Part shown: one piece after another, positions 15,417 to 32,000 of the stretch
Position numbering within the stretch: the stretch's first letter is position 1
Layout: each line of letters opens with the position of its first letter
Position numbers and translations under genes: made by a program
The notes under the pieces: generated by a model
Databases searched by the model: none
What the model saw: the letters and a program-made list of their open reading frames with translations, nothing else
What the model was told of the DNA's origin: nothing
Source: Candidatus Iainarchaeum sp.
GTDB lineage: Archaea > Iainarchaeota > Iainarchaeia > Iainarchaeales > CSSED10-239
Assembly (NCBI GenBank): GCA_037441475.1
Contig: JBBISB010000001.1
Coordinates: 336,418-368,417, forward strand
Length of the DNA stretch: 32,000 nt
Direction of reading: 5' to 3'

Positions 15417-15599
15417 TTTTAATCACTAATTATTAGGACATAGGGAATATTTTTTAAATAGTACTTTTATAAAATTAATCATTAAAAAAGTAATTTTTAA
15501 ATTAAAACAATTTTGGGGGAAGTGCTTTTTTAAAAAGAAATATTAGATAAACGTTAACAAACCAAAAACCATTGGGTGCGAGCTGACTGAAACCAGCTA

Positions 15600-15681
15600 C
15601 GCAGAGAATGAGATTCGAACTCATGTAGCACGAGGCTCAAGTTTTCGAGACTTGCGCATTTGACCACTCCGCCATCTCTGC
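15600..15681 (-). tRNA. tRNA-Ser (anticodon CGA)
   Basis: Folded by hand from the minus strand. Acceptor stem is GCAGAGA/TCTCTGC with discriminator G. Anticodon arm is CAAGT-CTCGAAA-ACTTG, giving anticodon CGA. There is a long variable arm (AGCCTCGTGCTAC) and a T arm ATGAG-TTCGAAT-CTCAT. No CCA is encoded. Confidence 0.85.
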
Positions 15682-15710
15682 AAAATATTTTTAATAAAAA
15701 ATAAAAAAAG

Positions 15711-15792
15711 CGCAGAGGACGAGATTCGAACTCGTGTAGCACGAGGCTCAAGCTTTCCAGGCTTGCGCGTTTGACCACTCCGCCACCTCTGC
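15711..15792 (-). tRNA. tRNA-Ser (anticodon GGA)
   Basis: Acceptor stem GCAGAGG/CCTCTGC plus G. Anticodon arm CAAGC-CTGGAAA-GCTTG, long variable arm, T arm ACGAG-TTCGAAT-CTCGT. No CCA is encoded. Confidence 0.85.
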
Positions 15793-15809
15793 ATTTTTTA
15801 AAAAAAAAA

Positions 15810-16142
15810 TTAGTGTACTTGCGAGCCATCTAAAACAGACTCTGATGGTAAAAGTAAAGCATCAAGATCTTTTGAACCTATAGCCAATATCATGCCTTGA
15901 CTTTCAAGACCCATTAATTTTCTAGGCTCTAAATTTACAATAACAGGTATTTGTTTATTAATAACCTCTGATGGTTGATATTTGGTTTTAATACCAGCGA
16001 TTATCTGTCTTTTAAAATCATTGAAGTCAATAATTAATTTCAATAGTTTATCAGAACCTTCAACAATCTCAGCTTCAACAATTGTGCCTATCCTTATATC
16101 AAGCTTTACAAAGTCATTATAAGTTATATTTTCTTTAACCAT
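15810..16142 (-). CDS. stand-alone tRNA-binding domain protein (Trbp111/CsaA-like, MetRS C-terminal-domain homologue)
   Basis: From the internal Met at 16142: 'MVKENITYNDFVKLDIRIGTIVEAEIVEGSDKLLKLIIDFNDFKRQIIAGIKTKYQPSEVINKQIPVIVNLEPRKLMGLESQGMILA', a near-consensus tRNA-binding OB fold. The tracked ORF's upstream 77 codons run across tRNA-Ser(UGA) and are not coding. Confidence 0.85.
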   Translation of the reverse strand: MVKENITYNDFVKLDIRIGTIVEAEIVEGSDKLLKLIIDFNDFKRQIIAGIKTKYQPSEVINKQIPVIVNLEPRKLMGLESQGMILAIGSKDLDALLLPSESVLDGSQVH

Positions 16143-16173
16143 TTTTTTTATCACATTTAAAATAAATAAAATG

Positions 16174-16255
16174 CGCAGAGGACGAGATTCGAACTCGTGT
16201 AGCGCAAGGCTCCAGCTCTCAAGGCTGGCGCGTTTGACCACTCCGCCACCTCTGC
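16174..16255 (-). tRNA. tRNA-Ser (anticodon UGA)
   Basis: Acceptor stem GCAGAGG/CCTCTGC plus G. Anticodon arm CCAGC-CTTGAGA-GCTGG, long variable arm (AGCCTTGCGCTAC), T arm ACGAG-TTCGAAT-CTCGT. No CCA is encoded. Confidence 0.85.
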
Positions 16256-21596: not shown

Positions 21597-22202
21597 TTAC
21601 TTATATTTTTCAATAGGTAATTCTTCAATACCATCTTTTTTAATTACAACAATCTTTATTCCATCCCCACCTGTAAAAAGATCTCTTTTCTTTGCAGAGG
21701 TAATAGCTTCTTTTGCAATTTCAATTGCATCTTTAACAGTTAAAGAGGATTTGTAGTTTTTATCAAGAACACTTAAAGCAAGTTCTGAACCAGATCCTGA
21801 GAAAGAAAAATTTTCTTCCTTTGAAAAACCACCAAGCATGTCAAGAGAATAAAGGTCTTGATCTGAACCTGCAAGTATTAATTGAGAGTAGTAAGGGATC
21901 ATTTTACTTGAGTTTAAGATGTTTGATAAAAGAGTAACACATGATTTTGTGCTTAAAGCCCTTTTATGTTCAAGCTCATAAAGGTTTGCATGATTTTGTA
22001 AGTATCTAACTAAGACCATGGCATCTCCAACTGAACCTGCAATTGTCATTGCTATTCTGTCGTTTATTTTATATATTTTTGTTGTGTTGTTGTTAACAGC
22101 TAAGTTACCCATAGAAGCTTGCATGTCTGCTGCTAAGATGATACCATCTTTTGCAACAATACCAACTGTTGTTGTGCCTGTCTTTAATGTTTTATCTGTC
22201 AA
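21597..22202 (-). CDS. psmB: proteasome subunit beta
   Basis: A short propeptide followed by 'KTGTTTVGIVAKDGIILAADMQAS', with the catalytic Thr after Gly. 201 aa. The first 21 codons lie inside repeat copy A. Confidence 0.9.
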   Translation of the reverse strand: MTDKTLKTGTTTVGIVAKDGIILAADMQASMGNLAVNNNTTKIYKINDRIAMTIAGSVGDAMVLVRYLQNHANLYELEHKRALSTKSCVTLLSNILNSSKMIPYYSQLILAGSDQDLYSLDMLGGFSKEENFSFSGSGSELALSVLDKNYKSSLTVKDAIEIAKEAITSAKKRDLFTGGDGIKIVVIKKDGIEELPIEKYK

Positions 22203-22272
22203 AATTATTCACCTTTCTTATTACTTAATTTTTGAACGAAATTAACGTTTTCAAAACTTGTAGAATCAAAAA

Positions 22273-22914
22273 CTAACTTTGCAAAAACAATTGTTTAAAA
22301 TAATCTATTTCTTGAGGAACTCCAAAAGGAAGTTCTACTGAAACATCTTTTTCTTTAGAGCTTAACTTTAATTGTCCAGCAGGCATAAAGTAAAAAGACT
22401 TTTCTAAAAGAAGAGGTAATTTGTCTTCATCCTTTGAAATAACTTTATTAATTGTTATTGTGTATTCTAAATCTCTTCCAGCATAGATAGGGTTAAAGTC
22501 AACCTTTACTCTTCCACCAGAAATTGAAATTATCTTACCTGATTTGTTGCCTATGTTTACAAATAAACCAACTTCAGGTCTTACATTTTCTTTTTTAAAT
22601 TCATTTAAAGAAACAAGTTCTACTTTATTTGAATCTCTATCTTTGAAAGCTTGTTCTTTTTTTAAGAGGAAAGTTTTTGTTTTTCCTATATCTAAATCAG
22701 AGATATTATCTTCAATACCTTTTAATAATTCGCCAGTTCCGAAAAGATAGTTTAAAGGTTTATATTCATTCTTTAAGTTTAAGTTATTTTCTTTTGCCAC
22801 TTCTTTTTTAGTTGTGTCAAGTATTTCTTTTGTGTTTGCGTCTTTTAAAATAAGATCAATTTCTACAATGTCTTTTGTTTTTATCATATTAATAAACCTC
22901 TTTTGTGTAATCAT
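22273..22914 (-). CDS. FKBP-type peptidyl-prolyl cis-trans isomerase (archaeal long type with insert-in-flap), copy A
   Basis: 'KPLNYLFGTGELLKGIEDNISDLDIGKTKTFLL', a long insert, then 'GRVKVDFNPIYAGRDLEYTITINKV' (the FNHPLAGK.L.F pattern). The likely true start is the Met at 22887 ('MIKTKD'). Confidence 0.75.
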   Translation of the reverse strand: MITQKRFINMIKTKDIVEIDLILKDANTKEILDTTKKEVAKENNLNLKNEYKPLNYLFGTGELLKGIEDNISDLDIGKTKTFLLKKEQAFKDRDSNKVELVSLNEFKKENVRPEVGLFVNIGNKSGKIISISGGRVKVDFNPIYAGRDLEYTITINKVISKDEDKLPLLLEKSFYFMPAGQLKLSSKEKDVSVELPFGVPQEIDYFKQLFLQS

Positions 22915-23117
22915 AGAATTAATGTTTTCATTTACCTATTTACAACTGTTTTATAAACTTTAAAGCAGTATCAAAAATAGGATTTTTATAAAAGTAGATG
23001 TTTTATATAATATATTAATGAACCGATTTGCTTAAAAAGATTTGTTTTTATGTAGCTTTAAGGGGTAAGCACAAATTATTTATTAAATTTTAAAATATTA
23101 AAGAAATTATAAAAAAA

Positions 23118-23471
23118 TTACTCTAACAACCATTTCCAGACAGGAATTACTTTATTATCTATATTAAACTCATCTTCTTGATAATAAGTTAATATGTACC
23201 CTATTTTTAATTTAAAAAAATCCATAGCGAAAACTAATCCTTTAATTTCCCTATCTTTATTATTATCATTTAACTCAAAACAAACTTGATAAGTTTCAAA
23301 AGATTTATCTTTAGCTATAAAATCACATTCAGAATTATCTTCATTAAAATAAGTAATTTCTTTTCCTTTTCTAATCAATTCTAAAAAAACAATATTTTCA
23401 AGTAAATGTCCTTTATCTTGATATCTTTGGAAAGTTAATATATTTCTTAAACAAGATTGGCACAGAATATG
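23118..23471 (-). pseudogene. 3' remnant of a DUF4143-type AAA ATPase gene, copy A
   Basis: The open frame from 23471 reads '...QRYQDKGHLLENIVFLELIRKGKEITYFNEDNSECDFIAKD...IPVWKWLLE'. This matches only the C-terminal ~110 aa of archaeal ATPases of this type (G.L.EN.V..EL...G....Y......E.DF.). No P-loop region lies upstream. Confidence 0.55.
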
Positions 23472-23551
23472 CTAAAAAAATCTAATTTGTTGGCATTAAC
23501 AGTTCCAATAAAACCAACAATATTTTTAATGTTAAATTAAACATAAATATA

Positions 23552-24562
23552 TTATTTAATATTTAAAGTACTTAAGAGATTATAAGAGTTTGAATGCTTT
23601 GCATAATCTAAAAAAGAAAAAAGAGAAGCCCTGAAGTTAAGTATAGAAATTTTATTTTGTTTTAGTAAATAATTATTTTTATTTTGCCTTTTTAGAAATC
23701 TTTTAACATTTGATTTTTTTAATCTTATGTTTGAAGGAAATACCTTATAACCTAAAAAATCAACACCTTTGCTTACTAAGTTAATATAAATTTTATTCTT
23801 TGGAACATCTAATAATAGTTCTTTACTTAAAAATAATTTAATTTTTCTTCTAAAAACCTTTAAATCTTTTTTAGAGTTTGAAAATATTAAAAAATCATCA
23901 ACATATCTATAATAAAGTTTAATTTTCAAAGTATGCTTAACATATTGATCTAATTGATTTAGATAAATATTTGCAAACAACTGAGAAGTTAAATTACCTA
24001 TAGGAATTCCTTTTTCAGTATTATTTACATTAAAAGAATAACTATCAATTATTTGATATATTAGAGAAAGTAACCTTTCATCCTTAATTCTTTTTTTGAT
24101 TATTCTTTTTAAAGTGGGTTTATGAACAGAAGGAAAGTATTTTTTAACATCTTGGTTTAAATAATATTTTGGAGGATTAGTGGTTTGAATGACATTTTTA
24201 ATTTCAAAAAGGCCTTTATGTGTGCCTTTTCCTTTTCTGCAAGCAAAGGAATTATTTATAAAAGTTTTATCAAAAATAGGTTCTATGATATTAATTATTG
24301 AATGTTGAACAACTACATCTCTAAAAGTTGGAGCACTAATAATTCTTTATTTAGGTTCATAAACTTTAAAACTTCTGTAAGGAGAAAATTGAAAATTTTC
24401 TGAAATTAATTGATCTTGTAATAAAAATAGCTCCTTTTCTAAATTTGTTGTAAATTGCAAGACATATTTTTTATTAGGTGTTGATTTTTTTGCTTTTTTA
24501 TAAGCATTAAAAAGATTTTTAAAAGAAGTAAACTCTTTCCAAAGGTTATTGTATGATTTCAT
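23552..24562 (-). pseudogene. DGR-type reverse transcriptase with one in-frame TAA (24347-24349), copy A
   Basis: I hand-translated 23981-24346 in the same frame as both tracked ORFs. It reads '...FKVYEPK*RIISAPTFRDVVVQHSIINIIEPIFDKTFINNSFACRKGKGTHKGL...KYFPSVHKPTL...GIPIGNLTSQLFANIYLNQLD...YYRYVDDFLIF...GVDFLGYKV'. RT motifs 1-7 are all present and the stop is the only disruption. 'IGNLTSQ' is the DGR-clade signature in motif 4. Confidence 0.85.
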
Positions 24563-24799
24563 TTTTAAAAAAACTTATTTAAAGTTAAAAGTTATTACAG
24601 ATTTCTTTTTACAGACTATAAAAATACTAAATGTAATAACTTATCTTTATATTTGATTTTTTAACATAAAAACAATAAAGTTTTTATGGCATACATCATA
24701 TGCAATCAGGAAACATTTTACAGATGTAGTTTTTTAAAATATTCGCTTTATATGTTTTTTTAAAAAAAACAAAAATATAACATATAAACTCTGATAAAA

Positions 24800-24821
24800 C
24801 CTTATTTCTTTAAAAATAAGG
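24800..24821 (-). terminator. hairpin plus T-run just downstream of the DGR target stop, copy A
   Basis: 8-bp stem ccttattt (24800-24807) / aaataagg (24814-24821) with a 6-nt loop. It starts 5 nt after the TAG on the minus strand and is followed by TTTTA. Confidence 0.35.
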
Positions 24822-24826
24822 AGAAA

Positions 24827-26194
24827 CTACTGAACGCAGCGCAAGCCGAAGAAGTCGGTCCGGCTTGTAGGAATGTTGGTCAAGTTCAGGGACAAGACAC
24901 CGGCACTAGAGTCATTGAGCCAGCGACCACCGCGCAAAAAAGCGTATACAGTCTTACTTGTGTCATTTATATTACTATAAGTATAAAGCCTACCAACACC
25001 ATTATTCGCATTATAACTATTACTTGTAAGTAAAAATAAATCTTTATACTTTAAAGTAGTGTTACCTAAATTATCAGAATAAATATATTGGTTTCCTCCA
25101 CCACCTTTTGAATAATCAAAAAAATTAAAGCCAGAAGTATAATTACTATCATCAGAATTATTAAATCCATCAGGCTGGTCTTTTATTTGGATAGTATCAC
25201 TAGTCCATTGCCAAACATTACCTGCTAAATCCCAAATTACCTCTCCATTAGTTAAAGTTAAAGTTCTTTTTGTAATTCCTGAAAGCTCGTCAAAACCGTC
25301 CATGGCCCTAGAGGATGATGAATTTCCTCTTGGAAGGTATCCTGAACCAACTTCTCCACCAGACCAGTTGGAGGGAACTTGTTCAATATTTCTTACAATT
25401 GTCATCCATTCGTTATTAGTTATTAAATGACCACCGATAGCTTCACAAGCGGCTATTGCTTCGGTTTGGGTAATTCTTACTATTGGAGAGCCTTCTGGAG
25501 TGGACACTAAGGTTCCTGGTGTTGGACATAATTCATAATTATAAGTATTAGATGTTAAAGAACCAGTATTACAATTAGGATAATCAGCTACAAGATTTCC
25601 TTTGCCATCACCATTTACATCCATTTTCATCTGATATTTTGAAACACAAAAACCCCCTCTTTCATTCATTGTACCATAAAGGTGGTTTCCAGGAACAGGA
25701 ATAAATCCTTCTGGACAAGAAGATGGATATTTAATATTTTGACGAAGAGAGGTTTTGGTTATCATTCTATCATTATCAAGGTAAAAAACAATATTTAAGT
25801 TGTCTTCTAAAATACCATGATCAATTACTGCTGTCTGGTTTGCAGTAATTGTTACTGGTGGGTCTAATGGATTAATATTAGTATTTCCGTGCAAGGAATA
25901 ACCAGTTATGGTTAAAGAGGTGAAAGGAGAACCATAAGGAGGATTATACTCTAAAATAGTTCTGCCATTTATGGAATCTTTTACTTGCAAATAAAAAGAA
26001 GTTTCTGATTCTGTGTAAATATCAAGACTTGAGGTTTTACCTAAGGAATCATTGGTAAAACCTTTTCCCCAAGAAACAATTATTGCAATAATAGCAACAG
26101 CAACAACTATTAAAAGAATGGTTGCAATTAATGGAGAAATTCCTTTCCTTTTTTTATTTTCCATTTGAAAAAAAATATTTGTATCTATACTCAT
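24827..26194 (-). CDS. DGR target protein: class III (type IV pilin-like) signal peptide plus C-terminal FGE-sulfatase/C-type-lectin-fold domain, copy A
   Basis: N-terminus 'MENKKRKGISPLIATILLIVVAVAIIAIIVSW' is an archaeal pilin-type signal, so the likely start is the Met at 26164. FGE/SUMF1-type motifs are 'GGHLITNNEWMTIVRN', 'WDLAGNVWQWTSD' and 'AFLRGGRW...FFGLRCVQ*'. Confidence 0.8.
   Translation of the reverse strand: MSIDTNIFFQMENKKRKGISPLIATILLIVVAVAIIAIIVSWGKGFTNDSLGKTSSLDIYTESETSFYLQVKDSINGRTILEYNPPYGSPFTSLTITGYSLHGNTNINPLDPPVTITANQTAVIDHGILEDNLNIVFYLDNDRMITKTSLRQNIKYPSSCPEGFIPVPGNHLYGTMNERGGFCVSKYQMKMDVNGDGKGNLVADYPNCNTGSLTSNTYNYELCPTPGTLVSTPEGSPIVRITQTEAIAACEAIGGHLITNNEWMTIVRNIEQVPSNWSGGEVGSGYLPRGNSSSSRAMDGFDELSGITKRTLTLTNGEVIWDLAGNVWQWTSDTIQIKDQPDGFNNSDDSNYTSGFNFFDYSKGGGGNQYIYSDNLGNTTLKYKDLFLLTSNSYNANNGVGRLYTYSNINDTSKTVYAFLRGGRWLNDSSAGVLSLNLTNIPTSRTDFFGLRCVQ
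24830..24946 (-). other. candidate DGR variable region (VR), copy A
   Basis: The last ~39 codons ('AFLRGGRWLNDSSAGVLSLNLTNIPTSRTDFFGLRCVQ') form a compositional island. By hand count about 61 of 105 nt in 24831-24935 are G+C, against very AT-rich flanks. This is the position where CLec/FGE-fold DGR targets carry their VR. Confidence 0.6.
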
Positions 26195-26203
26195 AAATGA
26201 TCT

Positions 26204-26268
26204 AACATAATATATATAAACATAATATATATAAACATAATATATATAAACAAATTATATATATATAA
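26204..26268. repeat. 15-bp tandem repeat, three perfect copies plus a degenerate fourth
   Basis: 'cataatatatataaa' occurs at 26206-26220, 26221-26235 and 26236-26250, followed by 'caaattatatatata'. It lies directly upstream (minus strand) of the DGR target gene. Each unit reads 'tttatatatattatg' on the coding strand, which is TATA-box-like. Confidence 0.8.
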
Positions 26269-26331
26269 GAAGATAATATTTATAAAGATATCTAAAGTAA
26301 ATAAAACTAATAAGTTAAAAAAAAATAAAAA

Positions 26332-26535
26332 TTACTTAGTAATTTTTACAAAATAATAAATATCTTTTCCGATACTTGAAAAATCAACCTTAACATTATT
26401 TACAGCCATTTTATCTAAAAAATCCTTATATGAAATACCAGCAATGTCTGCTACCTCTGATAAAGAAATACTTCTTATTTGATATGCTTTAAAAACTAAC
26501 TTTAGATTTTTAGAGAATTTATTATTTATATCCAT
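26332..26535 (-). CDS. UPF0175-like small HTH protein (antitoxin-like), probable
   Basis: 67 aa. 'AYQIRSISLSEVADIAGISYKDFLDKMAVNNV' follows the UPF0175 pattern (LY....ISLG.AAE.AG.S...F...L....I). No PIN or DUF3368 partner is adjacent. Confidence 0.45.
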   Translation of the reverse strand: MDINNKFSKNLKLVFKAYQIRSISLSEVADIAGISYKDFLDKMAVNNVKVDFSSIGKDIYYFVKITK

Positions 26536-26645
26536 AAATATATTATTTATAATAATCTTTTTAAAAGTGAGTAATTAATAAAAAGAAGTATTATATTATC
26601 TTCTCTATAATAGTATATAGAAAGAAATAATAAAAAAAGAAAAAC

Positions 26646-28538
26646 ATGTATTCAAAAGAAGAAATTACAAAGAAGATACTTGACATTAACAAATACGAAA
26701 AACTAAACCCTATGCAAAACTTAGCAAAAGAACATATAGGGACAAACACACTTATCACAACACCAACAGCTTCTGGAAAAACAACAGTCTTTGAAATGTA
26801 CATGCTTGACTGTTTATTAAACAAGAAAAAAAAAGCAATTTACATCTCTCCCTTAAAAGCATTAACAACAGAACATTATTTAGAAACTAAAAGAAAGTTT
26901 TCAAAAGAATTTAACCTAAAAATAGGACTTTCAACTGGAGACCTGGATTCAAGTAACAAATATCTTGAAAGTTATGATGTTTTATTTTTAACATATGAAA
27001 AATTTGATTCAATTCTAAGACATAAACCTTCATGGTTAAAAAATATTGGACTTTTAACAATTGATGAAATTCATGAGCTTGGATCAAATAGAGGTTCAAC
27101 CTTAGAAGTTATAATTACACAACTAAAACATAGCTATAGAGAAATTACTCTTCTAGGGTTATCTGCAACCATTAAAAACTCAAAAGAAATATCTGATTGG
27201 CTTTCTGCAAAACTAGTTTTAAGTAACTACCGACCAGTTCCTCTTGAAACTGGAGTTTTTTATAATGATTCTATTTACTTTGAAGATAGAAAAGAAGACT
27301 TAACTTCTCTTACTGTTAAAAACATTAATTTAGGATCAATCATTAAAGACACTTTAAAGAAAGAAAAACAAGCAATTGTTTTTTGTGCATCTAGAAAAAA
27401 TGCAATGTCGTTTGCAAAAAAATATGGAAAAATAATCTCTGGAAGTTTAAAAGATGAAGAATACCAAAAACTTAGAAAAGCCTCTCAAGAGGTTTTAGAA
27501 GCTTTAGAACACCCAACAAAACAATGTGAAAAACTTTCTCTTTCTCTTTTAATGGGTTCAGCATTTCATCATGCAGGACTGGTCTATAAACAAAGAGAAG
27601 TGGTTGAAGAAAATTTTAAGAAAGGAAACATCAAAGTTATTTTTGCAACACCAACTCTTGCAGCTGGAATTAACCTACCAGCCTTTAGGGTGATTATAAA
27701 CAGTGTTTTTAGATTTTCAGAAGGATCAATGGTTCCAATACCAGTTAATGAATTTCAACAAATGGCAGGAAGAGCAGGAAGACCAAGGTATGATAAAAAA
27801 GGAGAGGCAATCTGTGTGGTTAACAAAGAAGGAGATATACCTAAGATATATAACACATATATAATATCTGGACCTTCAAACATAGACTCACAACTATCTA
27901 AAATAAACATCCTAAGAGGACATCTTTTATCAATGATTCTCATAAACAACCTTAGGTCTTTAGAAGAAGTAATCTCTTATATTTCTAAAACATTTTATTA
28001 TTTTGTTTATGGAAACACAAGTGAGATTAGAAAAAACATACAAGAGATTATTTCTGAGTTTATTGGGTATGGTTTTTTAGAAAAGAAAGAAACTGGTTTT
28101 GAGATTACCTCTTTAGGTAAGAAAGTGTGTTATCTTTATATTGATCCTCTTTCAGCAAACAACATCTTAAAAGATTTAGACTTAAAGAAAGAGAAAGATA
28201 CTAAGGTTTATGAAAAAATATTTACAGTTGTTAATACCTCTGAAATGGCGCCTTATCTTGTATACAAGCAAGAGAAAGAAAATGATTTGTTTGTTTTTTT
28301 TGAAGAGATTAGAAAGAACATTTATTTTGAATATGAGGATATTTATCTTTTACAAAAACTATATATGACAAAAATTATTCATGAGTGGATTGAAGAAAGA
28401 GAAGAAAATTCTTTACTTGAAGAATATAACACAACACCTGGACAGATTAGAGATATTATTTCAAGAGCAAAATGGATATGCCACTCTACAGATACCATCT
28501 TTTGCAACAATACCAACTGTTGTTGTGCCTGTCTTTAA
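26646..28538 (+). CDS. Ski2/Hel308-like superfamily 2 helicase, 3'-truncated at the repeat junction
   Basis: Motif I 'TPTASGKTTVFE', motif II 'DEIHELG', motif III 'SAT', then 'FHHAGL', 'ATPTLAAGINLPA' and motif VI 'QMAGRAGRP'. Native sequence ends at codon 615 (28490). The last 15 codons (DTIFCNNTNCCCACL) are antisense to the psmB 5' end. Confidence 0.8.
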   Translation: MYSKEEITKKILDINKYEKLNPMQNLAKEHIGTNTLITTPTASGKTTVFEMYMLDCLLNKKKKAIYISPLKALTTEHYLETKRKFSKEFNLKIGLSTGDLDSSNKYLESYDVLFLTYEKFDSILRHKPSWLKNIGLLTIDEIHELGSNRGSTLEVIITQLKHSYREITLLGLSATIKNSKEISDWLSAKLVLSNYRPVPLETGVFYNDSIYFEDRKEDLTSLTVKNINLGSIIKDTLKKEKQAIVFCASRKNAMSFAKKYGKIISGSLKDEEYQKLRKASQEVLEALEHPTKQCEKLSLSLLMGSAFHHAGLVYKQREVVEENFKKGNIKVIFATPTLAAGINLPAFRVIINSVFRFSEGSMVPIPVNEFQQMAGRAGRPRYDKKGEAICVVNKEGDIPKIYNTYIISGPSNIDSQLSKINILRGHLLSMILINNLRSLEEVISYISKTFYYFVYGNTSEIRKNIQEIISEFIGYGFLEKKETGFEITSLGKKVCYLYIDPLSANNILKDLDLKKEKDTKVYEKIFTVVNTSEMAPYLVYKQEKENDLFVFFEEIRKNIYFEYEDIYLLQKLYMTKIIHEWIEEREENSLLEEYNTTPGQIRDIISRAKWICHSTDTIFCNNTNCCCACL

Positions 28539-28553
28539 TGTTTTATCTGTCAA
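28491..28553 (-). pseudogene. duplicated 5' fragment of psmB (codons 1-21) with its upstream region
   Basis: Identical to 22140-22202 (MTDKTLKTGTTTVGIVAKDGI). Past the junction the frame continues as CRVAYPFCS* through sequence antisense to the helicase. Confidence 0.8.
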
Positions 28554-28623
28554 AATTATTCACCTTTCTTATTACTTAATTTTTGAACGAAATTAACGTT
28601 TTCAAAACTTGTAGAATCAAAAA

Positions 28624-29265
28624 CTAACTTTGCAAAAACAATTGTTTAAAATAATCTATTTCTTGAGGAACTCCAAAAGGAAGTTCTACTGAAACATCTT
28701 TTTCTTTAGAGCTTAACTTTAATTGTCCAGCAGGCATAAAGTAAAAAGACTTTTCTAAAAGAAGAGGTAATTTGTCTTCATCCTTTGAAATAACTTTATT
28801 AATTGTTATTGTGTATTCTAAATCTCTTCCAGCATAGATAGGGTTAAAGTCAACCTTTACTCTTCCACCAGAAATTGAAATTATCTTACCTGATTTGTTG
28901 CCTATGTTTACAAATAAACCAACTTCAGGTCTTACATTTTCTTTTTTAAATTCATTTAAAGAAACAAGTTCTACTTTATTTGAATCTCTATCTTTGAAAG
29001 CTTGTTCTTTTTTTAAGAGGAAAGTTTTTGTTTTTCCTATATCTAAATCAGAGATATTATCTTCAATACCTTTTAATAATTCGCCAGTTCCGAAAAGATA
29101 GTTTAAAGGTTTATATTCATTCTTTAAGTTTAAGTTATTTTCTTTTGCCACTTCTTTTTTAGTTGTGTCAAGTATTTCTTTTGTGTTTGCGTCTTTTAAA
29201 ATAAGATCAATTTCTACAATGTCTTTTGTTTTTATCATATTAATAAACCTCTTTTGTGTAATCAT
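28624..29265 (-). CDS. FKBP-type peptidyl-prolyl isomerase, copy B
   Basis: 213-aa translation identical to 22273-22914. Confidence 0.75.
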   Translation of the reverse strand: MITQKRFINMIKTKDIVEIDLILKDANTKEILDTTKKEVAKENNLNLKNEYKPLNYLFGTGELLKGIEDNISDLDIGKTKTFLLKKEQAFKDRDSNKVELVSLNEFKKENVRPEVGLFVNIGNKSGKIISISGGRVKVDFNPIYAGRDLEYTITINKVISKDEDKLPLLLEKSFYFMPAGQLKLSSKEKDVSVELPFGVPQEIDYFKQLFLQS

Positions 29266-29468
29266 AGAATTAATGTTTTCATTTACCTATTTACAACTGT
29301 TTTATAAACTTTAAAGCAGTATCAAAAATAGGATTTTTATAAAAGTAGATGTTTTATATAATATATTAATGAACCGATTTGCTTAAAAAGATTTGTTTTT
29401 ATGTAGCTTTAAGGGGTAAGCACAAATTATTTATTAAATTTTAAAATATTAAAGAAATTATAAAAAAA

Positions 29469-29822
29469 TTACTCTAACAACCATTTCCAGACAGGAATTA
29501 CTTTATTATCTATATTAAACTCATCTTCTTGATAATAAGTTAATATGTACCCTATTTTTAATTTAAAAAAATCCATAGCGAAAACTAATCCTTTAATTTC
29601 CCTATCTTTATTATTATCATTTAACTCAAAACAAACTTGATAAGTTTCAAAAGATTTATCTTTAGCTATAAAATCACATTCAGAATTATCTTCATTAAAA
29701 TAAGTAATTTCTTTTCCTTTTCTAATCAATTCTAAAAAAACAATATTTTCAAGTAAATGTCCTTTATCTTGATATCTTTGGAAAGTTAATATATTTCTTA
29801 AACAAGATTGGCACAGAATATG
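29469..29822 (-). pseudogene. DUF4143-type ATPase 3' remnant, copy B
   Basis: Identical to 23118-23471. Confidence 0.55.
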
Positions 29823-29902
29823 CTAAAAAAATCTAATTTGTTGGCATTAACAGTTCCAATAAAACCAACAATATTTTTAATGTTAAATTAAACATAAATA
29901 TA

Positions 29903-30913
29903 TTATTTAATATTTAAAGTACTTAAGAGATTATAAGAGTTTGAATGCTTTGCATAATCTAAAAAAGAAAAAAGAGAAGCCCTGAAGTTAAGTATAGAAA
30001 TTTTATTTTGTTTTAGTAAATAATTATTTTTATTTTGCCTTTTTAGAAATCTTTTAACATTTGATTTTTTTAATCTTATGTTTGAAGGAAATACCTTATA
30101 ACCTAAAAAATCAACACCTTTGCTTACTAAGTTAATATAAATTTTATTCTTTGGAACATCTAATAATAGTTCTTTACTTAAAAATAATTTAATTTTTCTT
30201 CTAAAAACCTTTAAATCTTTTTTAGAGTTTGAAAATATTAAAAAATCATCAACATATCTATAATAAAGTTTAATTTTCAAAGTATGCTTAACATATTGAT
30301 CTAATTGATTTAGATAAATATTTGCAAACAACTGAGAAGTTAAATTACCTATAGGAATTCCTTTTTCAGTATTATTTACATTAAAAGAATAACTATCAAT
30401 TATTTGATATATTAGAGAAAGTAACCTTTCATCCTTAATTCTTTTTTTGATTATTCTTTTTAAAGTGGGTTTATGAACAGAAGGAAAGTATTTTTTAACA
30501 TCTTGGTTTAAATAATATTTTGGAGGATTAGTGGTTTGAATGACATTTTTAATTTCAAAAAGGCCTTTATGTGTGCCTTTTCCTTTTCTGCAAGCAAAGG
30601 AATTATTTATAAAAGTTTTATCAAAAATAGGTTCTATGATATTAATTATTGAATGTTGAACAACTACATCTCTAAAAGTTGGAGCACTAATAATTCTTTA
30701 TTTAGGTTCATAAACTTTAAAACTTCTGTAAGGAGAAAATTGAAAATTTTCTGAAATTAATTGATCTTGTAATAAAAATAGCTCCTTTTCTAAATTTGTT
30801 GTAAATTGCAAGACATATTTTTTATTAGGTGTTGATTTTTTTGCTTTTTTATAAGCATTAAAAAGATTTTTAAAAGAAGTAAACTCTTTCCAAAGGTTAT
30901 TGTATGATTTCAT
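29903..30913 (-). pseudogene. DGR-type reverse transcriptase with the same in-frame TAA (30698-30700), copy B
   Basis: Both tracked ORF pieces are identical to copy A and the stop is at the same position. Confidence 0.85.
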
Positions 30914-31177
30914 TTTTAAAAAAACTTATTTAAAGTTAAAAGTTATTACAGATTTCTTTTTACAGACTATAAAAATACTAAATGTAATAACTTATCTTTA
31001 TATTTGATTTTTTAACATAAAAACAATAAAGTTTTTATGGCATACATCATATGCAATCAGGAAACATTTTACAGATGTAGTTTTTTAAAATATTCGCTTT
31101 ATATGTTTTTTTAAAAAAAACAAAAATATAACATATAAACTCTGATAAAACCTTATTTCTTTAAAAATAAGGAGAAA

Positions 31178-32000
31178 CTACTGAACGCAGCGCAAGCCGA
31201 AGAAGTCGGTCCGGCTTGTAGGAATGTTGGTCAAGTTCAGGGACAAGACACCGGCACTAGAGTCATTGAGCCAGCGACCACCGCGCAAAAAAGCGTATAC
31301 AGTCTTACTTGTGTCATTTATATTACTATAAGTATAAAGCCTACCAACACCATTATTCGCATTATAACTATTACTTGTAAGTAAAAATAAATCTTTATAC
31401 TTTAAAGTAGTGTTACCTAAATTATCAGAATAAATATATTGGTTTCCTCCACCACCTTTTGAATAATCAAAAAAATTAAAGCCAGAAGTATAATTACTAT
31501 CATCAGAATTATTAAATCCATCAGGCTGGTCTTTTATTTGGATAGTATCACTAGTCCATTGCCAAACATTACCTGCTAAATCCCAAATTACCTCTCCATT
31601 AGTTAAAGTTAAAGTTCTTTTTGTAATTCCTGAAAGCTCGTCAAAACCGTCCATGGCCCTAGAGGATGATGAATTTCCTCTTGGAAGGTATCCTGAACCA
31701 ACTTCTCCACCAGACCAGTTGGAGGGAACTTGTTCAATATTTCTTACAATTGTCATCCATTCGTTATTAGTTATTAAATGACCACCGATAGCTTCACAAG
31801 CGGCTATTGCTTCGGTTTGGGTAATTCTTACTATTGGAGAGCCTTCTGGAGTGGACACTAAGGTTCCTGGTGTTGGACATAATTCATAATTATAAGTATT
31901 AGATGTTAAAGAACCAGTATTACAATTAGGATAATCAGCTACAAGATTTCCTTTGCCATCACCATTTACATCCATTTTCATCTGATATTTTGAAACACAA
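31178..32000 (-). CDS. DGR target protein, copy B (C-terminal 267 aa visible; 5' part beyond the window)
   Basis: The translation is identical to the C-terminal part of 24827-26194, including the candidate VR (31181-31297). Confidence 0.8.
   Translation of the reverse strand, partial: CVSKYQMKMDVNGDGKGNLVADYPNCNTGSLTSNTYNYELCPTPGTLVSTPEGSPIVRITQTEAIAACEAIGGHLITNNEWMTIVRNIEQVPSNWSGGEVGSGYLPRGNSSSSRAMDGFDELSGITKRTLTLTNGEVIWDLAGNVWQWTSDTIQIKDQPDGFNNSDDSNYTSGFNFFDYSKGGGGNQYIYSDNLGNTTLKYKDLFLLTSNSYNANNGVGRLYTYSNINDTSKTVYAFLRGGRWLNDSSAGVLSLNLTNIPTSRTDFFGLRCVQ

What the first reader, a model, noticed from the sequence alone, without database searches (positions are those of the whole stretch)
23552..26194. 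Archaeal DGR whose target is a pilin-signal protein tipped with an FGE/C-type-lectin domain
Seen in the sequence: the RT carries the N-terminal 'NLWKEFTSFKNLFNAYKKAKK', 'FKVYEPK', 'IPIGNLTSQLFANIYLNQLD' and 'YYRYVDDFLIF'. The gene immediately upstream on the same strand encodes a class III signal peptide ('KRKGISPLIATILLIVVAVAIIAII') and ends in an FGE-sulfatase/CLec fold ('GNVWQWTSD', 'RGGRW', 'FGLRC'). Its final ~115 nt are a GC-rich island (about 58% by hand count) in otherwise very AT-rich DNA. Established knowledge: DGR RTs have the [ILV]G...SQ motif 4, and DGR targets carry the VR at the C-terminus of CLec/FGE folds. DGRs are abundant in DPANN archaea (Paul et al. 2015, 2017). Inference: the pilin-type N-terminus would place a hypervariable ligand-binding tip on a surface filament or as an anchored adhesin, which would suit an episymbiont attaching to hosts. 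I do not know whether this pilin-plus-DGR-lectin fusion has been examined experimentally.
Basis: partly seen in the sequence, partly recalled or inferred. Interest (0 to 1): 0.8.

Follow-up and report, generated by a model that had tools for sequence, protein, structure and literature searches.

The report
Collapsed, dead archaeal DGR with frozen pilin-lectin
This is the wreck of a targeted-hypermutation cassette (a diversity-generating retroelement, DGR) in a tiny DPANN archaeon: its template, helper gene and enzyme are lost or broken, so the pilin-like surface lectin it once diversified is now fixed in one variant.

Summary
The RT belongs to the DGR clade. The upstream 455-aa gene is an archaeal type IV pilin module fused to a DGR-type C-type-lectin/FGE module. 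Its last ~117 nt (55.6% GC) are the most GC-rich stretch of this length in a 27.7% GC window.

This copy is nevertheless not a working DGR. Syntenic relatives, including Ca. Forterrea multitransposorum, carry target – 128-aa ORF – Avd – TR – 265-nt spacer – RT, and their VR/TR mismatches fall only at TR adenines. In the window the target's stop codon runs directly into that TR-to-RT spacer. The 128-aa ORF, Avd and the template repeat are missing, which is what a ~1.2-kb deletion between the directly repeated VR and TR would leave. The crossover lies in the last ~24 nt. The RT also carries a nonsense codon (GAA to TAA, codon 72).

The whole remnant sits inside a perfect 6,351-bp tandem duplication. 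The target ORF is intact, and its non-VR codons give dN/dS of about 0.16 against Forterrea. The VR is still GC-rich, unlike the AT-rich tails of DGR-less paralogs, so the uncoupling appears recent.

Verdict: a degenerate member of a known system, of moderate interest.

The parts
24827..26194 (-). Target gene, 455 aa. It has a class III (prepilin-type) signal and hydrophobic helix (aa ~11-52), a pilin-like beta-sandwich (aa ~69-151), and a CLec/FGE-type module (aa ~160-455). The ORF is intact.
   Evidence: ORF. Pfam FGE-sulfatase 2.6e-10 and TIGR02537 at 25.4 bits above cutoff. AlphaFold pLDDT 88.9 with helix 21-52 and strands 69-151. Foldseek matches TaqVP, FGE, Mtd and the pilin 8FK7. dN/dS is 0.16 against Forterrea outside the VR.
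24824..24942 (-). Variable repeat (VR), now the only repeat copy of the cassette. It is a VR/TR fusion and is 55-56% GC.
   Evidence: It aligns to the TRs of three relatives at 75-77% identity. About 19-21 differences lie at TR adenines and about 7 at other bases. No second copy exists in the window or in L003/L004 apart from the tandem duplicate.
24824..24847 (-). Inferred crossover interval GGCTTGCGCTGCGTTCAGTAGTTT. This is the 3' end shared by VR and TR, and it includes the target's TAG stop at 24829-24827.
   Evidence: Upstream of it, up to codon TTC at 24850-24848, the repeat is diversified like a VR. Downstream of it, the sequence is the TR flank of relatives.
24563..24826 (-). Conserved TR-to-RT spacer, corresponding by position to the Sp part of the DGR RNA. 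Here it directly follows the target's stop codon.
   Evidence: Column identity is 83% with the spacers of L001, L124 and L128. Conserved hairpins carry 5 compensatory pairs. The folding z-score is -4.4.
23552..24562 (-). DGR-type reverse transcriptase pseudogene, 336 codons in one frame.
   Evidence: Translation. Best PDB match 8ub7_A at 2.9e-52. It is 87% identical to the Forterrea-type RT P0001.
24347..24349 (-). Nonsense codon TAA at RT codon 72.
   Evidence: Four relatives have GAA (Glu) at this position, so a single G-to-T change explains it.
23118..23378 (-). 86-aa ORF that is a C-terminal remnant of an AAA_14/DUF4143 ATPase gene. That gene follows the RT in Forterrea.
   Evidence: BLASTP gives 40% identity to aa 339-421 of the 421-aa ATPase of L124, E=4e-15.
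26204..26263 (-). A 15-nt TATA-like unit (GTTTATATATATTAT on the gene strand) present in three tandem copies just upstream of the target start codon.
   Evidence: the repeat finder family D3. Forterrea has a single copy.
28491..32000 (.). Second, identical copy of 22140-25649, from a 6,351-bp tandem duplication. It contains RT' at 29903-30913, VR' at 31175-31293, and target' from 31178 onward, cut by the window end.
   Evidence: 100% identity at an offset of 6351. Both copies are called on the 671,531-nt contig. The junction at 28490|28491 shows 1-nt microhomology.

Best explanation
The locus is a degenerate, collapsed diversity-generating retroelement in a Forterrea-like DPANN (Iainarchaeota) archaeon.

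The ancestral cassette, which relatives still have, was: pilin-CLec target with a C-terminal VR, a 128-aa ORF, Avd, the TR, a ~265-nt structured spacer, and the RT. VR and TR are ~120-nt direct repeats about 1.2 kb apart, and they share an identical 3' end.

A recombination or replication-slippage event within that shared ~24-nt end deleted one repeat unit. This removed the VR-downstream element, the 128-aa ORF, Avd and the TR. It fused the diversified VR to the TR's downstream spacer.

With no template and no Avd, the RT had no function. It now carries a nonsense mutation (Glu72 to stop).

The target gene remains an intact ORF; most of its divergence from relatives was under purifying selection. 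Its ligand-binding surface is frozen in one variant.

A 6,351-bp segment containing the whole remnant was later duplicated in tandem.

What is shown: the deletion architecture, the nonsense codon, the DGR identity of the RT, the fold of the target, and adenine-specific VR/TR differences in relatives. What is inferred: the recombination mechanism, the order of events, that the protein is displayed on or as a type IV pilus-like filament, and that it binds a host or surface ligand.
For: - Synteny: L001 (NPID01000561.1) has helicase, UPF0175, target, 128-aa ORF, bAvd, RT, FKBP, proteasome and aCPSF1 in the same order as the window, apart from the two missing genes. The same four-gene cassette is found in Forterrea CP045477.1 and in other contigs.
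- All 11 relatives whose RT is at least 60% identical keep Avd and a TR. Only the window lacks both.
- The sequence after the window's target stop aligns to the TR-downstream spacer of relatives, not to their VR-downstream sequence.
- No TR, Avd or accessory homologue is found in the window or in L003/L004, together roughly 42 kb of this genome.
- In relatives, VR/TR core mismatches occur only at TR adenines.
- The RT stop is GAA in four relatives.
- The RT matches 8ub7_A (which I take to be bRT) far better than group II intron RTs.
- The conserved VR-downstream GC-rich repeat of relatives is absent from the window.
- Non-VR dN/dS of the target is 0.16, similar to pairs of intact loci.
- The VR is 55.6% GC, close to DGR-linked VRs (55-59%) and unlike DGR-less paralogs (28-38%).
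- In the Bordetella phage system, bRT has no activity without Avd, and 20 nt of upstream avd sequence plus the spacer are needed for cDNA synthesis (PMC6182149).
Against: - There is only one assembly of this genome, and no reads were available. An assembler jump across the shared 3' end of VR and TR could in principle imitate the deletion. A perfect 6.35-kb tandem duplication nearby also raises the question of assembly quality.
- The rest of the 671-kb contig could not be scanned, so a complete DGR elsewhere that acts in trans is not excluded.
- The RT shows no other sign of decay. It has only 2 private changes at conserved positions and dN/dS of 0.18. The nonsense codon could therefore be very recent, a minority allele, or a base-call error.
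Confidence: 0.8

Rival explanations
1. The locus is an active DGR. The target would still be diversified, either by this RT through readthrough of the stop or by a complete DGR elsewhere in the genome that supplies RT, Avd and a TR in trans. Degenerate DGR loci in Thiohalocapsa PB-PSB1 are grouped with complete loci of the same class (PMC10907252).
For: A Forterrea-like genome carries two paralogous DGRs whose TRs each align at about 93-98% identity to the same reference TR. Degenerate loci sharing a class with a complete locus are documented. The VR is still GC-rich.
Against: - Within the DNA available there is no TR or Avd in cis.
- The window's VR differs from every relative's TR at about 7 non-adenine positions. 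Active VRs in relatives differ from their own TR at none.
- The conserved VR-downstream element is deleted. In the BPP-1 DGR, a 24-bp sequence immediately downstream of the VR is required for efficient retrohoming (PMC3240598).
- Cluster look-ups found no second related RT or target on a 671,531-nt contig. This check was partial.
Confidence: 0.07
2. The collapse is an assembly artefact. In this case the real genome has an intact cassette, and the assembler joined VR to the TR flank through their shared 3' end. The tandem duplication would also be an artefact.
For: VR and TR share an identical stretch of about 24-30 nt at their 3' ends. Only one assembly carries this exact target protein. The Forterrea paper reports that de novo assemblies of such genomes contained local errors that needed curation (PMC5905446).
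Against: - The contig is a single 671,531-nt sequence.
- The duplication junction shares only 1 nt of homology, so there is no shared k-mer that could mislead a graph assembler.
- An independent lesion, the RT nonsense codon, fits true loss of function.
- The neighbouring ATPase gene is also reduced to a remnant.
Confidence: 0.1
3. The RT is not a DGR RT but a group II intron, retron or Abi/DRT-type RT, and it lies next to an FGE-like gene by coincidence.
For: NCBIfam's best hit is the group II intron RT model at 148.6 bits, below its cutoff of 300. Some database sources label homologues as retron-type RT.
Against: The full-length match to 8ub7_A scores 181 bits, against 86 bits for group II intron RTs. 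The IGxxxSQ motif is present. Orthologues lie in canonical Avd/TR/VR cassettes with adenine-specific mismatches. No intron RNA or retron ncRNA family was detected by Rfam.
Confidence: 0.01

Closest known systems
Intact orthologous DGR of Candidatus Forterrea multitransposorum (CP045477.1, locus L124) and of NPID01000561.1 (L001)
   Same: The flanking genes are the same (Hel308-like helicase, UPF0175, FKBP, proteasome beta, aCPSF1). The target is 75-81% identical, the RT 78-87% identical, and the TR-to-RT spacer is conserved.
   Different: Those loci keep the 128-aa ORF, Avd, the TR and an uninterrupted RT, and their VRs differ from their TRs only at adenines. The window has lost all of these and carries a nonsense codon in the RT.
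Bordetella phage BPP-1 DGR (Mtd, Avd, TR, bRT)
   Same: The RT family matches (8ub7_A at 2.9e-52, taken to be bRT; IGxxxSQ motif). The target has a C-terminal CLec-fold VR, and Foldseek matches Mtd at E about 1e-4. A structured spacer lies between TR and RT.
   Different: The host is an archaeal cell and the target is a pilin-like protein, not a phage tail fibre. The gene order includes an extra 128-aa ORF. This copy lacks Avd and the TR, both of which are essential in BPP-1 (PMC6182149).
Degenerate DGR loci of Thiohalocapsa PB-PSB1 (Dore et al. 2024, PMC10907252)
   Same: These are DGR loci in which key machinery is missing or pseudogenised.
   Different: In that genome the degradation is attributed to transposons and MITE-like repeats, and complete loci of the same class exist in the genome. 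Here the lesion is a clean VR/TR fusion deletion, and no partner locus was found in a limited search.
TaqVP (PDB 5VF4) and other FGE-type CLec variable proteins of DGRs
   Same: TaqVP is the best structural match (E=1.8e-9) and also a profile match (E=0.0026). The RGG...W...G...L...GLRC scaffold carries interleaved variable positions.
   Different: The window protein has an N-terminal archaeal type IV pilin module, and its VR is no longer coupled to a template.
DGR-diversified adhesive subunits of Bacteroides type V pili (Macadangdang et al., bioRxiv 10.1101/2024.11.15.621889)
   Same: In both, a DGR-variable ligand-binding domain is mounted on a pilus-type subunit.
   Different: Those are bacterial type V pili, a different assembly system. 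They have been tested experimentally, whereas the archaeal class III-signal version has only been predicted.
Archaeal type IV pilins, e.g. the Pyrobaculum calidifontis flagellar-like type IV pilus subunit (PDB 8FK7)
   Same: Both have an N-terminal [KR]-G/A | hydrophobic helix followed by a beta-sandwich. The profile match is E=4.2e-6 and the Foldseek match E=2.5e-4 over 143 columns.
   Different: The window protein carries an extra C-terminal lectin module of about 300 aa. Whether it can polymerise or caps a filament is unknown.

Membership tests
Diversity-generating retroelement (functional cassette) | Reverse transcriptase of the DGR clade, with the [ILV]GxxxSQ motif 4 and closest similarity to bRT | tested here: met
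   The motif IPIGNLTSQ is present. The best PDB match is 8ub7_A at 181 bits, against 86 bits for group II intron RTs. Orthologues lie in Avd/TR/VR cassettes. No formal phylogeny was run.
Diversity-generating retroelement (functional cassette) | Uninterrupted RT reading frame | tested here: not met
   An in-frame TAA occupies codon 72 (24349-24347). Four relatives have GAA there.
Diversity-generating retroelement (functional cassette) | A template repeat (TR) paired with the VR, with mismatches at TR adenines | tested here: not met
   blastn with word size 7 found no second copy in the window or in L003/L004 other than the tandem duplicate. Relatives do have such pairs with adenine-only core mismatches. 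The rest of the genome was not searched.
Diversity-generating retroelement (functional cassette) | Accessory variability determinant (Avd) | tested here: not met
   tblastn with three Avd proteins and three 128-aa ORF proteins gave no hit better than E=0.085. All 11 close relatives have Avd.
Diversity-generating retroelement (functional cassette) | Target gene with the VR at the C-terminus of a CLec/FGE fold | tested here: met
   Pfam FGE-sulfatase scores 2.6e-10. The AlphaFold model has pLDDT 88.9. Foldseek matches TaqVP at 1.8e-9, FGEs and Mtd. Family entropy peaks at interleaved positions 424-449.
Diversity-generating retroelement (functional cassette) | Ongoing diversification, seen as read-level variation confined to TR-adenine positions | not testable with these tools
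   No reads were available. The two tandem copies have identical VRs.
Archaeal type IV pilin / class III signal peptide protein | N-terminal short basic leader, G/A cleavage site and hydrophobic helix | tested here: met
   The sequence reads KKRKG|ISPLIATILLIVVAVAIIAII. TIGR02537 scores 25.4 bits, above its cutoff of 20. Pfam Pilin_N scores 19 bits, below its cutoff of 25.2. The hydrophobic N-terminal segment is conserved in the alignment of 66 homologues (near-invariant columns), and 39 of 66 match a strict cleavage-site pattern.
Archaeal type IV pilin / class III signal peptide protein | Pilin-like globular beta-sandwich following the helix | tested here: met
   The model has helix 21-52 and strands 69-151. 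Foldseek matches the pilin 8FK7 at E=2.5e-4 over 143 columns.
Archaeal type IV pilin / class III signal peptide protein | Cleavage by a prepilin peptidase and assembly into, or onto, a filament | not testable with these tools
   No pilus assembly genes appear among the called genes of L003/L004. The remainder of the window was not annotated, and no experiment was possible.
Formylglycine-generating enzyme (catalytic FGE) | Catalytic cysteine pair in the C-terminal region | tested here: not met
   The C-terminal 37 aa, LRGGRWLNDSSAGVLSLNLTNIPTSRTDFFGLRCVQ, contain a single Cys. The best sequence match is SUMF2, described in PDB as the paralogue of the human FGE. The position of the catalytic pair is taken from my own knowledge of FGE.

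The most novel reading that the evidence does not exclude
A VR/TR crossover may act as a one-step, irreversible off switch for a DGR. By deleting the template, Avd and the accessory ORF, it would lock a pilin-lectin adhesin into a single successful variant. The immediate tandem duplication of the locked gene and the triplicated TATA-like promoter unit would then reflect selection for higher dosage of that variant in an episymbiont committed to one host.

A more radical variant is that the fused repeat, now sitting in the TR position in front of the spacer and RT, once served as its own template. I consider this very unlikely, at under 3%.
Probability: 0.15. Interest if true: 0.55.

Novelty: new member of a known kind. 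Interest (0 to 1): 0.38.

Why it matters
The locus is a clean natural example of how a DGR dies. A single deletion between its own two repeats removes the template and the helper genes in one event. The dead locus still shows recognisable marks:
- a VR that abuts the TR-to-RT spacer;
- a GC-rich VR in an AT-rich genome;
- differences from related TRs at non-adenine positions.

DGR scanners that key on the RT plus a CLec target would miscall such loci as active.

Three states of one protein family can be compared here: active relatives, this collapsed copy, and AT-equilibrated paralogs with no DGR. That series suggests VR base composition could serve as a rough clock for time since uncoupling.

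The work also documents that a pilin-module-plus-variable-lectin architecture is a large, conserved family in DPANN archaea. This bears on how these episymbionts attach to hosts. The idea of DGR-varied pilus adhesins already has a bacterial precedent.

Tried and rejected
- I searched for a TR with blastn (word size 7) using the VR and three relatives' TRs against the window and L003/L004. Only the VR and its duplicate were found.
- I made one genome contigs pattern scan with TGCGCGGTGGNNNCTGGNNCNNTG, hoping to count VR/TR copies in the source genome. It did reveal the Forterrea VR/TR pair.
- Cluster-member look-ups for a second RT or target on the same contig found none, but covered only 6 clusters.
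- An Rfam search of 23000-26600 returned only two sub-threshold chance hits.
- I considered recoding or readthrough of TAA and rejected it. Neighbouring genes have normal full-length ORFs, for example a 630-aa aCPSF1 identical in length to the orthologue in L001, and relatives have GAA at the site.
- I considered aberrant retrohoming as the origin of the fusion and rejected it. Retrohoming would place TR-derived sequence in front of the VR flank, which is the opposite of what is seen (inference and PMC6182149).
- I tested whether the 128-aa ORF is an Avd paralog. No similarity was found.
- Paul et al. 2017 (PMC5436926) is not held in the library, so I could not check whether it already describes pilin-type DPANN targets. 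PMC6642488 mentions 'putative pilin structures' among DUF1566 targets, citing earlier work.
Full report
**1. The observation.**
On the minus strand, 26194..24827 is a 455-aa ORF. Frame 24562..23552 reads as one 336-codon reverse transcriptase interrupted by a single TAA at 24349-24347.

The last ~117 nt of the upstream gene (24830-24946) are 55.6% GC. The window as a whole is 27.7% GC, the RT 21.9% and the intergenic spacer 17.8%. Only 0.056% of 117-nt windows reach 55% GC, and every one of them lies in this element or in its duplicate.

**2. Source and context.**
The exact target protein occurs twice on one 671,531-nt contig, CAZGHU010000001.1 of GCA_964526055.1. The neighbouring genes are archaeal: aCPSF1, proteasome beta subunit, a Hel308-like helicase, FKBP, and eRF1 with an intein.

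The closest named relative is Candidatus Forterrea multitransposorum (CP045477.1). It belongs to Iainarchaeota, within the DPANN archaea.

**3. The RT is a DGR RT.**
- Its best solved-structure match is the 328-aa RT 8ub7_A (E=2.9e-52, 181 bits, full length). I take this entry to be the Bordetella phage bRT; that identification is from memory and not from a tool result. Group II intron RTs score at most 86 bits.
- The alignment shares GIPIG(N/S)LTSQLFAN(I/V)Y.
- NCBIfam gives only a sub-threshold group II intron hit, 148.6 bits against a cutoff of 300.
- Homologues that are 60-87% identical lie next to bAvd genes and TR/VR pairs.

**4. The target is a pilin module plus a DGR-type lectin module.**
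- TIGR02537 (archaellin/type IV pilin N-terminal domain) scores 25.4 bits, above its cutoff of 20. Pfam FGE-sulfatase scores E=2.6e-10.
- A 66-sequence family alignment has near-invariant hydrophobic N-terminal columns. A strict cleavage-site pattern is matched in 39 of the 66. FGE-sulfatase is detected in 51 of the 66.
- The AlphaFold model has mean pLDDT 88.9 and pTM 0.83. It shows a long N-terminal helix (residues 21-52), a beta-sandwich (69-151) and a large C-terminal domain.
- The best Foldseek PDB matches are: the Thermus aquaticus DGR variable protein TaqVP (E=1.8e-9), formylglycine-generating enzymes, the BPP-1 variable protein Mtd, and the Pyrobaculum calidifontis flagellar-like type IV pilus subunit 8FK7 (E=2.5e-4). 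A profile of the family also hits 8FK7 and TaqVP by sequence.
- Family entropy in the last 35 residues alternates. Conserved scaffold positions (R421, G422, G423, W425, G432, L434, L436, P442, G450, R452, C453) are interleaved with highly variable positions.
- The C-terminal tail has a single cysteine, so it is not a catalytic FGE. This last point relies on my own knowledge of where FGE's cysteine pair lies.

**5. What relatives show.**
In L001 (NPID01000561.1) the gene order is helicase, UPF0175, target (464 aa), 128-aa ORF, bAvd (113 aa), RT (336 aa), FKBP, proteasome, aCPSF1. This is the same neighbourhood as the window.

The same cassette is present in Forterrea (L124), two other large contigs (L128, L131), a short contig (L002), and twice in one Forterrea-like genome (L129 and L130).

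Each of these has a VR at the target's 3' end and a TR about 1.2 kb downstream, between Avd and the RT. Within the repeat core, every VR/TR mismatch falls on a TR adenine, mostly in AAC codons. These are canonical DGRs.

**6. What the window lacks.**
Between the target's stop (24827) and the RT's start (24562) there are only 264 nt. That stretch aligns end to end with the TR-to-RT spacer of relatives at 83% column identity. It includes conserved hairpins with compensatory changes. It does not align with what follows the VR in relatives.

The conserved GC-rich element downstream of relatives' VRs (GACGGGTGAGACGGCAAGACGG...) is absent from the window.

No Avd or 128-aa ORF homologue and no second TR-like sequence was found in the window or in the two 21-kb loci from the same contig. 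Of the 12 loci whose RT is at least 60% identical, the window is the only one without Avd and a TR.

**7. Mechanism of the collapse (inference).**
The target's 5' context continues into a repeat that is diversified like a VR up to codon TTC at 24850-24848. The final 24 nt follow, GGCTTGCGCTGCGTTCAGTAGTTT at 24847-24824, which VR and TR share. After that comes the TR flank.

This is the product expected from a crossover or replication slippage between the direct repeats within their shared 3' end. Such an event deletes exactly one repeat spacing, 1,202-1,267 nt in relatives.

Retrohoming cannot produce this arrangement, because it would put TR-derived sequence in front of the VR's own flank.

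**8. Second lesion.**
RT codon 72 is TAA. Four relatives have GAA at that codon within an identical context, TATGAACCTAAA-GAA-AGA.

Otherwise the RT looks healthy. It has only 2 private substitutions at conserved positions, within the range of intact homologues, and its dN/dS against Forterrea is 0.18. Inactivation therefore appears recent.

In the Bordetella system, bRT alone has no activity. Avd, 20 nt of upstream avd sequence and nearly the whole spacer are all needed for cDNA synthesis (PMC6182149). A 24-bp sequence immediately downstream of the VR is needed for efficient retrohoming (PMC3240598). By those standards this locus fails on several independent counts.

**9. State of the VR.**
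Compared with relatives' TRs, the window's VR differs at 19-21 adenine positions. It also differs at about 7 non-adenine positions, most of them G/C to A/T changes. There are two possible explanations:
- the lost TR of this lineage had diverged from those of relatives; or
- the VR has begun to drift now that it is no longer overwritten.

Paralogs of the family with no DGR nearby (L144 and L145) encode the same scaffold with AT-rich codons, 28% and 38% GC in the last 120 nt. DGR-linked VRs are 55-59% GC. The window's 55.6% fits recent uncoupling.

The target itself remains an intact ORF. Its non-VR dN/dS is 0.16-0.24, the same range as between intact loci, so most of its divergence from relatives was under purifying selection.

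**10. The tandem duplication.**
Positions 22140-25649 are identical to 28491-32000. On the contig there are exactly two copies of a 6,351-bp unit. The outer helicase copy is intact at 704 aa. The inner copy is truncated at 630 aa and fused to a 21-codon fragment of the proteasome gene.

The junction shares only 1 nt of homology. This argues against a k-mer graph artefact and for illegitimate recombination. Both copies carry the collapsed cassette and the nonsense codon.

**11. Rival explanations.**
- *Diversification in trans by another DGR.* Degenerate loci that share a class with a complete locus are known in Thiohalocapsa (PMC10907252), and a Forterrea-like genome has two DGRs. This remains possible. 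The non-adenine mismatches, the lost VR-downstream element, and the failure to find a second related RT or target on this contig (partial) argue against it.
- *Assembly artefact.* This cannot be excluded without reads. The shared 3' end of the repeats is a plausible trap for an assembler, and Forterrea assemblies are known to need curation. The independent nonsense mutation and the neighbouring ATPase remnant fit genuine decay better.

**12. Comparison and novelty.**
DGRs in DPANN archaea, CLec/FGE variable proteins and degenerate DGR loci are all known. DGR-varied pilus adhesins are known for Bacteroides type V pili (bioRxiv 10.1101/2024.11.15.621889). 'Putative pilin structures' among DGR targets are mentioned in PMC6642488.

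In the searchable library I found no description of a DGR inactivated by a VR/TR fusion deletion, and none of the archaeal class III-signal pilin-lectin family as such. The key 2017 DPANN survey is not held, so this gap should be read cautiously.

I classify the locus as a degenerate new member of a known kind. It is of moderate interest as a clear example of DGR death and as a caution for RT-plus-target DGR calling.

Noticed in passing
window 22140-28490 and 28491-32000 (continues beyond the window): A perfect 6,351-bp tandem duplication spans FKBP, the ATPase remnant, the RT pseudogene, the target, UPF0175 and most of the helicase. The junction at 28490|28491 has 1-nt microhomology. It truncates one helicase copy (630 aa against 704 aa) and leaves a 21-codon proteasome fragment.
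   Followed up: yes
window 26204-26263: A 15-nt TATA-like unit (GTTTATATATATTAT on the gene strand) is present three times in tandem directly upstream of the target start codon. Forterrea has one copy. This may be a promoter-dosage change.
   Followed up: partly
window 23118-23378 (-): An 86-aa ORF is the C-terminal remnant (40% identity to aa 339-421) of the AAA_14/DUF4143 ATPase gene that follows the RT in Forterrea. This is a second decayed gene next to the dead DGR.
   Followed up: yes
L001 4806-5192; L124 7681-8067; L128 7627-8022: A conserved 128-131-aa ORF lies between the target and Avd in every intact cassette of this DGR lineage. It has no Pfam hit and no detectable similarity to Avd. 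It is an uncharacterised second accessory gene.
   Followed up: partly
L001 4555-4590; L124, L128, L131, L002 equivalents (alignment A4): An invariant GC-rich triple repeat, GACGGGTGAGACGGCAAGACGGCAAGACGG, lies about 40 nt downstream of the VR in all relatives. It is a candidate target-recognition or regulatory element, and it is deleted in the window.
   Followed up: partly
L144 5001-6338 and L145 5001-6371: Paralogs of the pilin-lectin family with no RT or Avd within 5 kb encode the same C-terminal scaffold, but with AT-rich codons (28-38% GC). This suggests long-uncoupled or never-coupled copies. Some genomes carry four paralogs (P0147, P0163, P0176 and P0231 on one 977,747-nt contig).
   Followed up: partly
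L129 and L130 (contig Ga0210034_1000002, 698,539 nt): One Forterrea-like genome carries two paralogous complete DGRs with 77%-identical RTs. Each of their TRs aligns at about 93-98% identity to the same reference TR, which raises the possibility of cross-talk between cassettes.
   Followed up: no
P0230, P0233, P0234, P0236: Homologues carry the bacterial prepilin N-methylation motif (PF07963) fused to FGE-sulfatase. The pilin-plus-variable-lectin design therefore seems to exist with bacterial-type pilin N-termini too, probably in CPR bacteria.
   Followed up: no
window 15599-16255 (-): Three tRNA-Ser genes (anticodons CGA, GGA, UGA) are clustered within 660 nt. They form the only other GC-rich islands in the window.
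   Followed up: no
L003 2051-4588: The eRF1 gene of this genome contains an intein with a LAGLIDADG homing-endonuclease domain. The same is seen in Forterrea (L124).
   Followed up: no
window 26332-26535 (-) and L003 6742-7083: A UPF0175 antitoxin-like ORF lies immediately upstream of the target in the window and in the syntenic relatives L001 and L124. A ParE-like toxin gene lies beyond the helicase.
   Followed up: no
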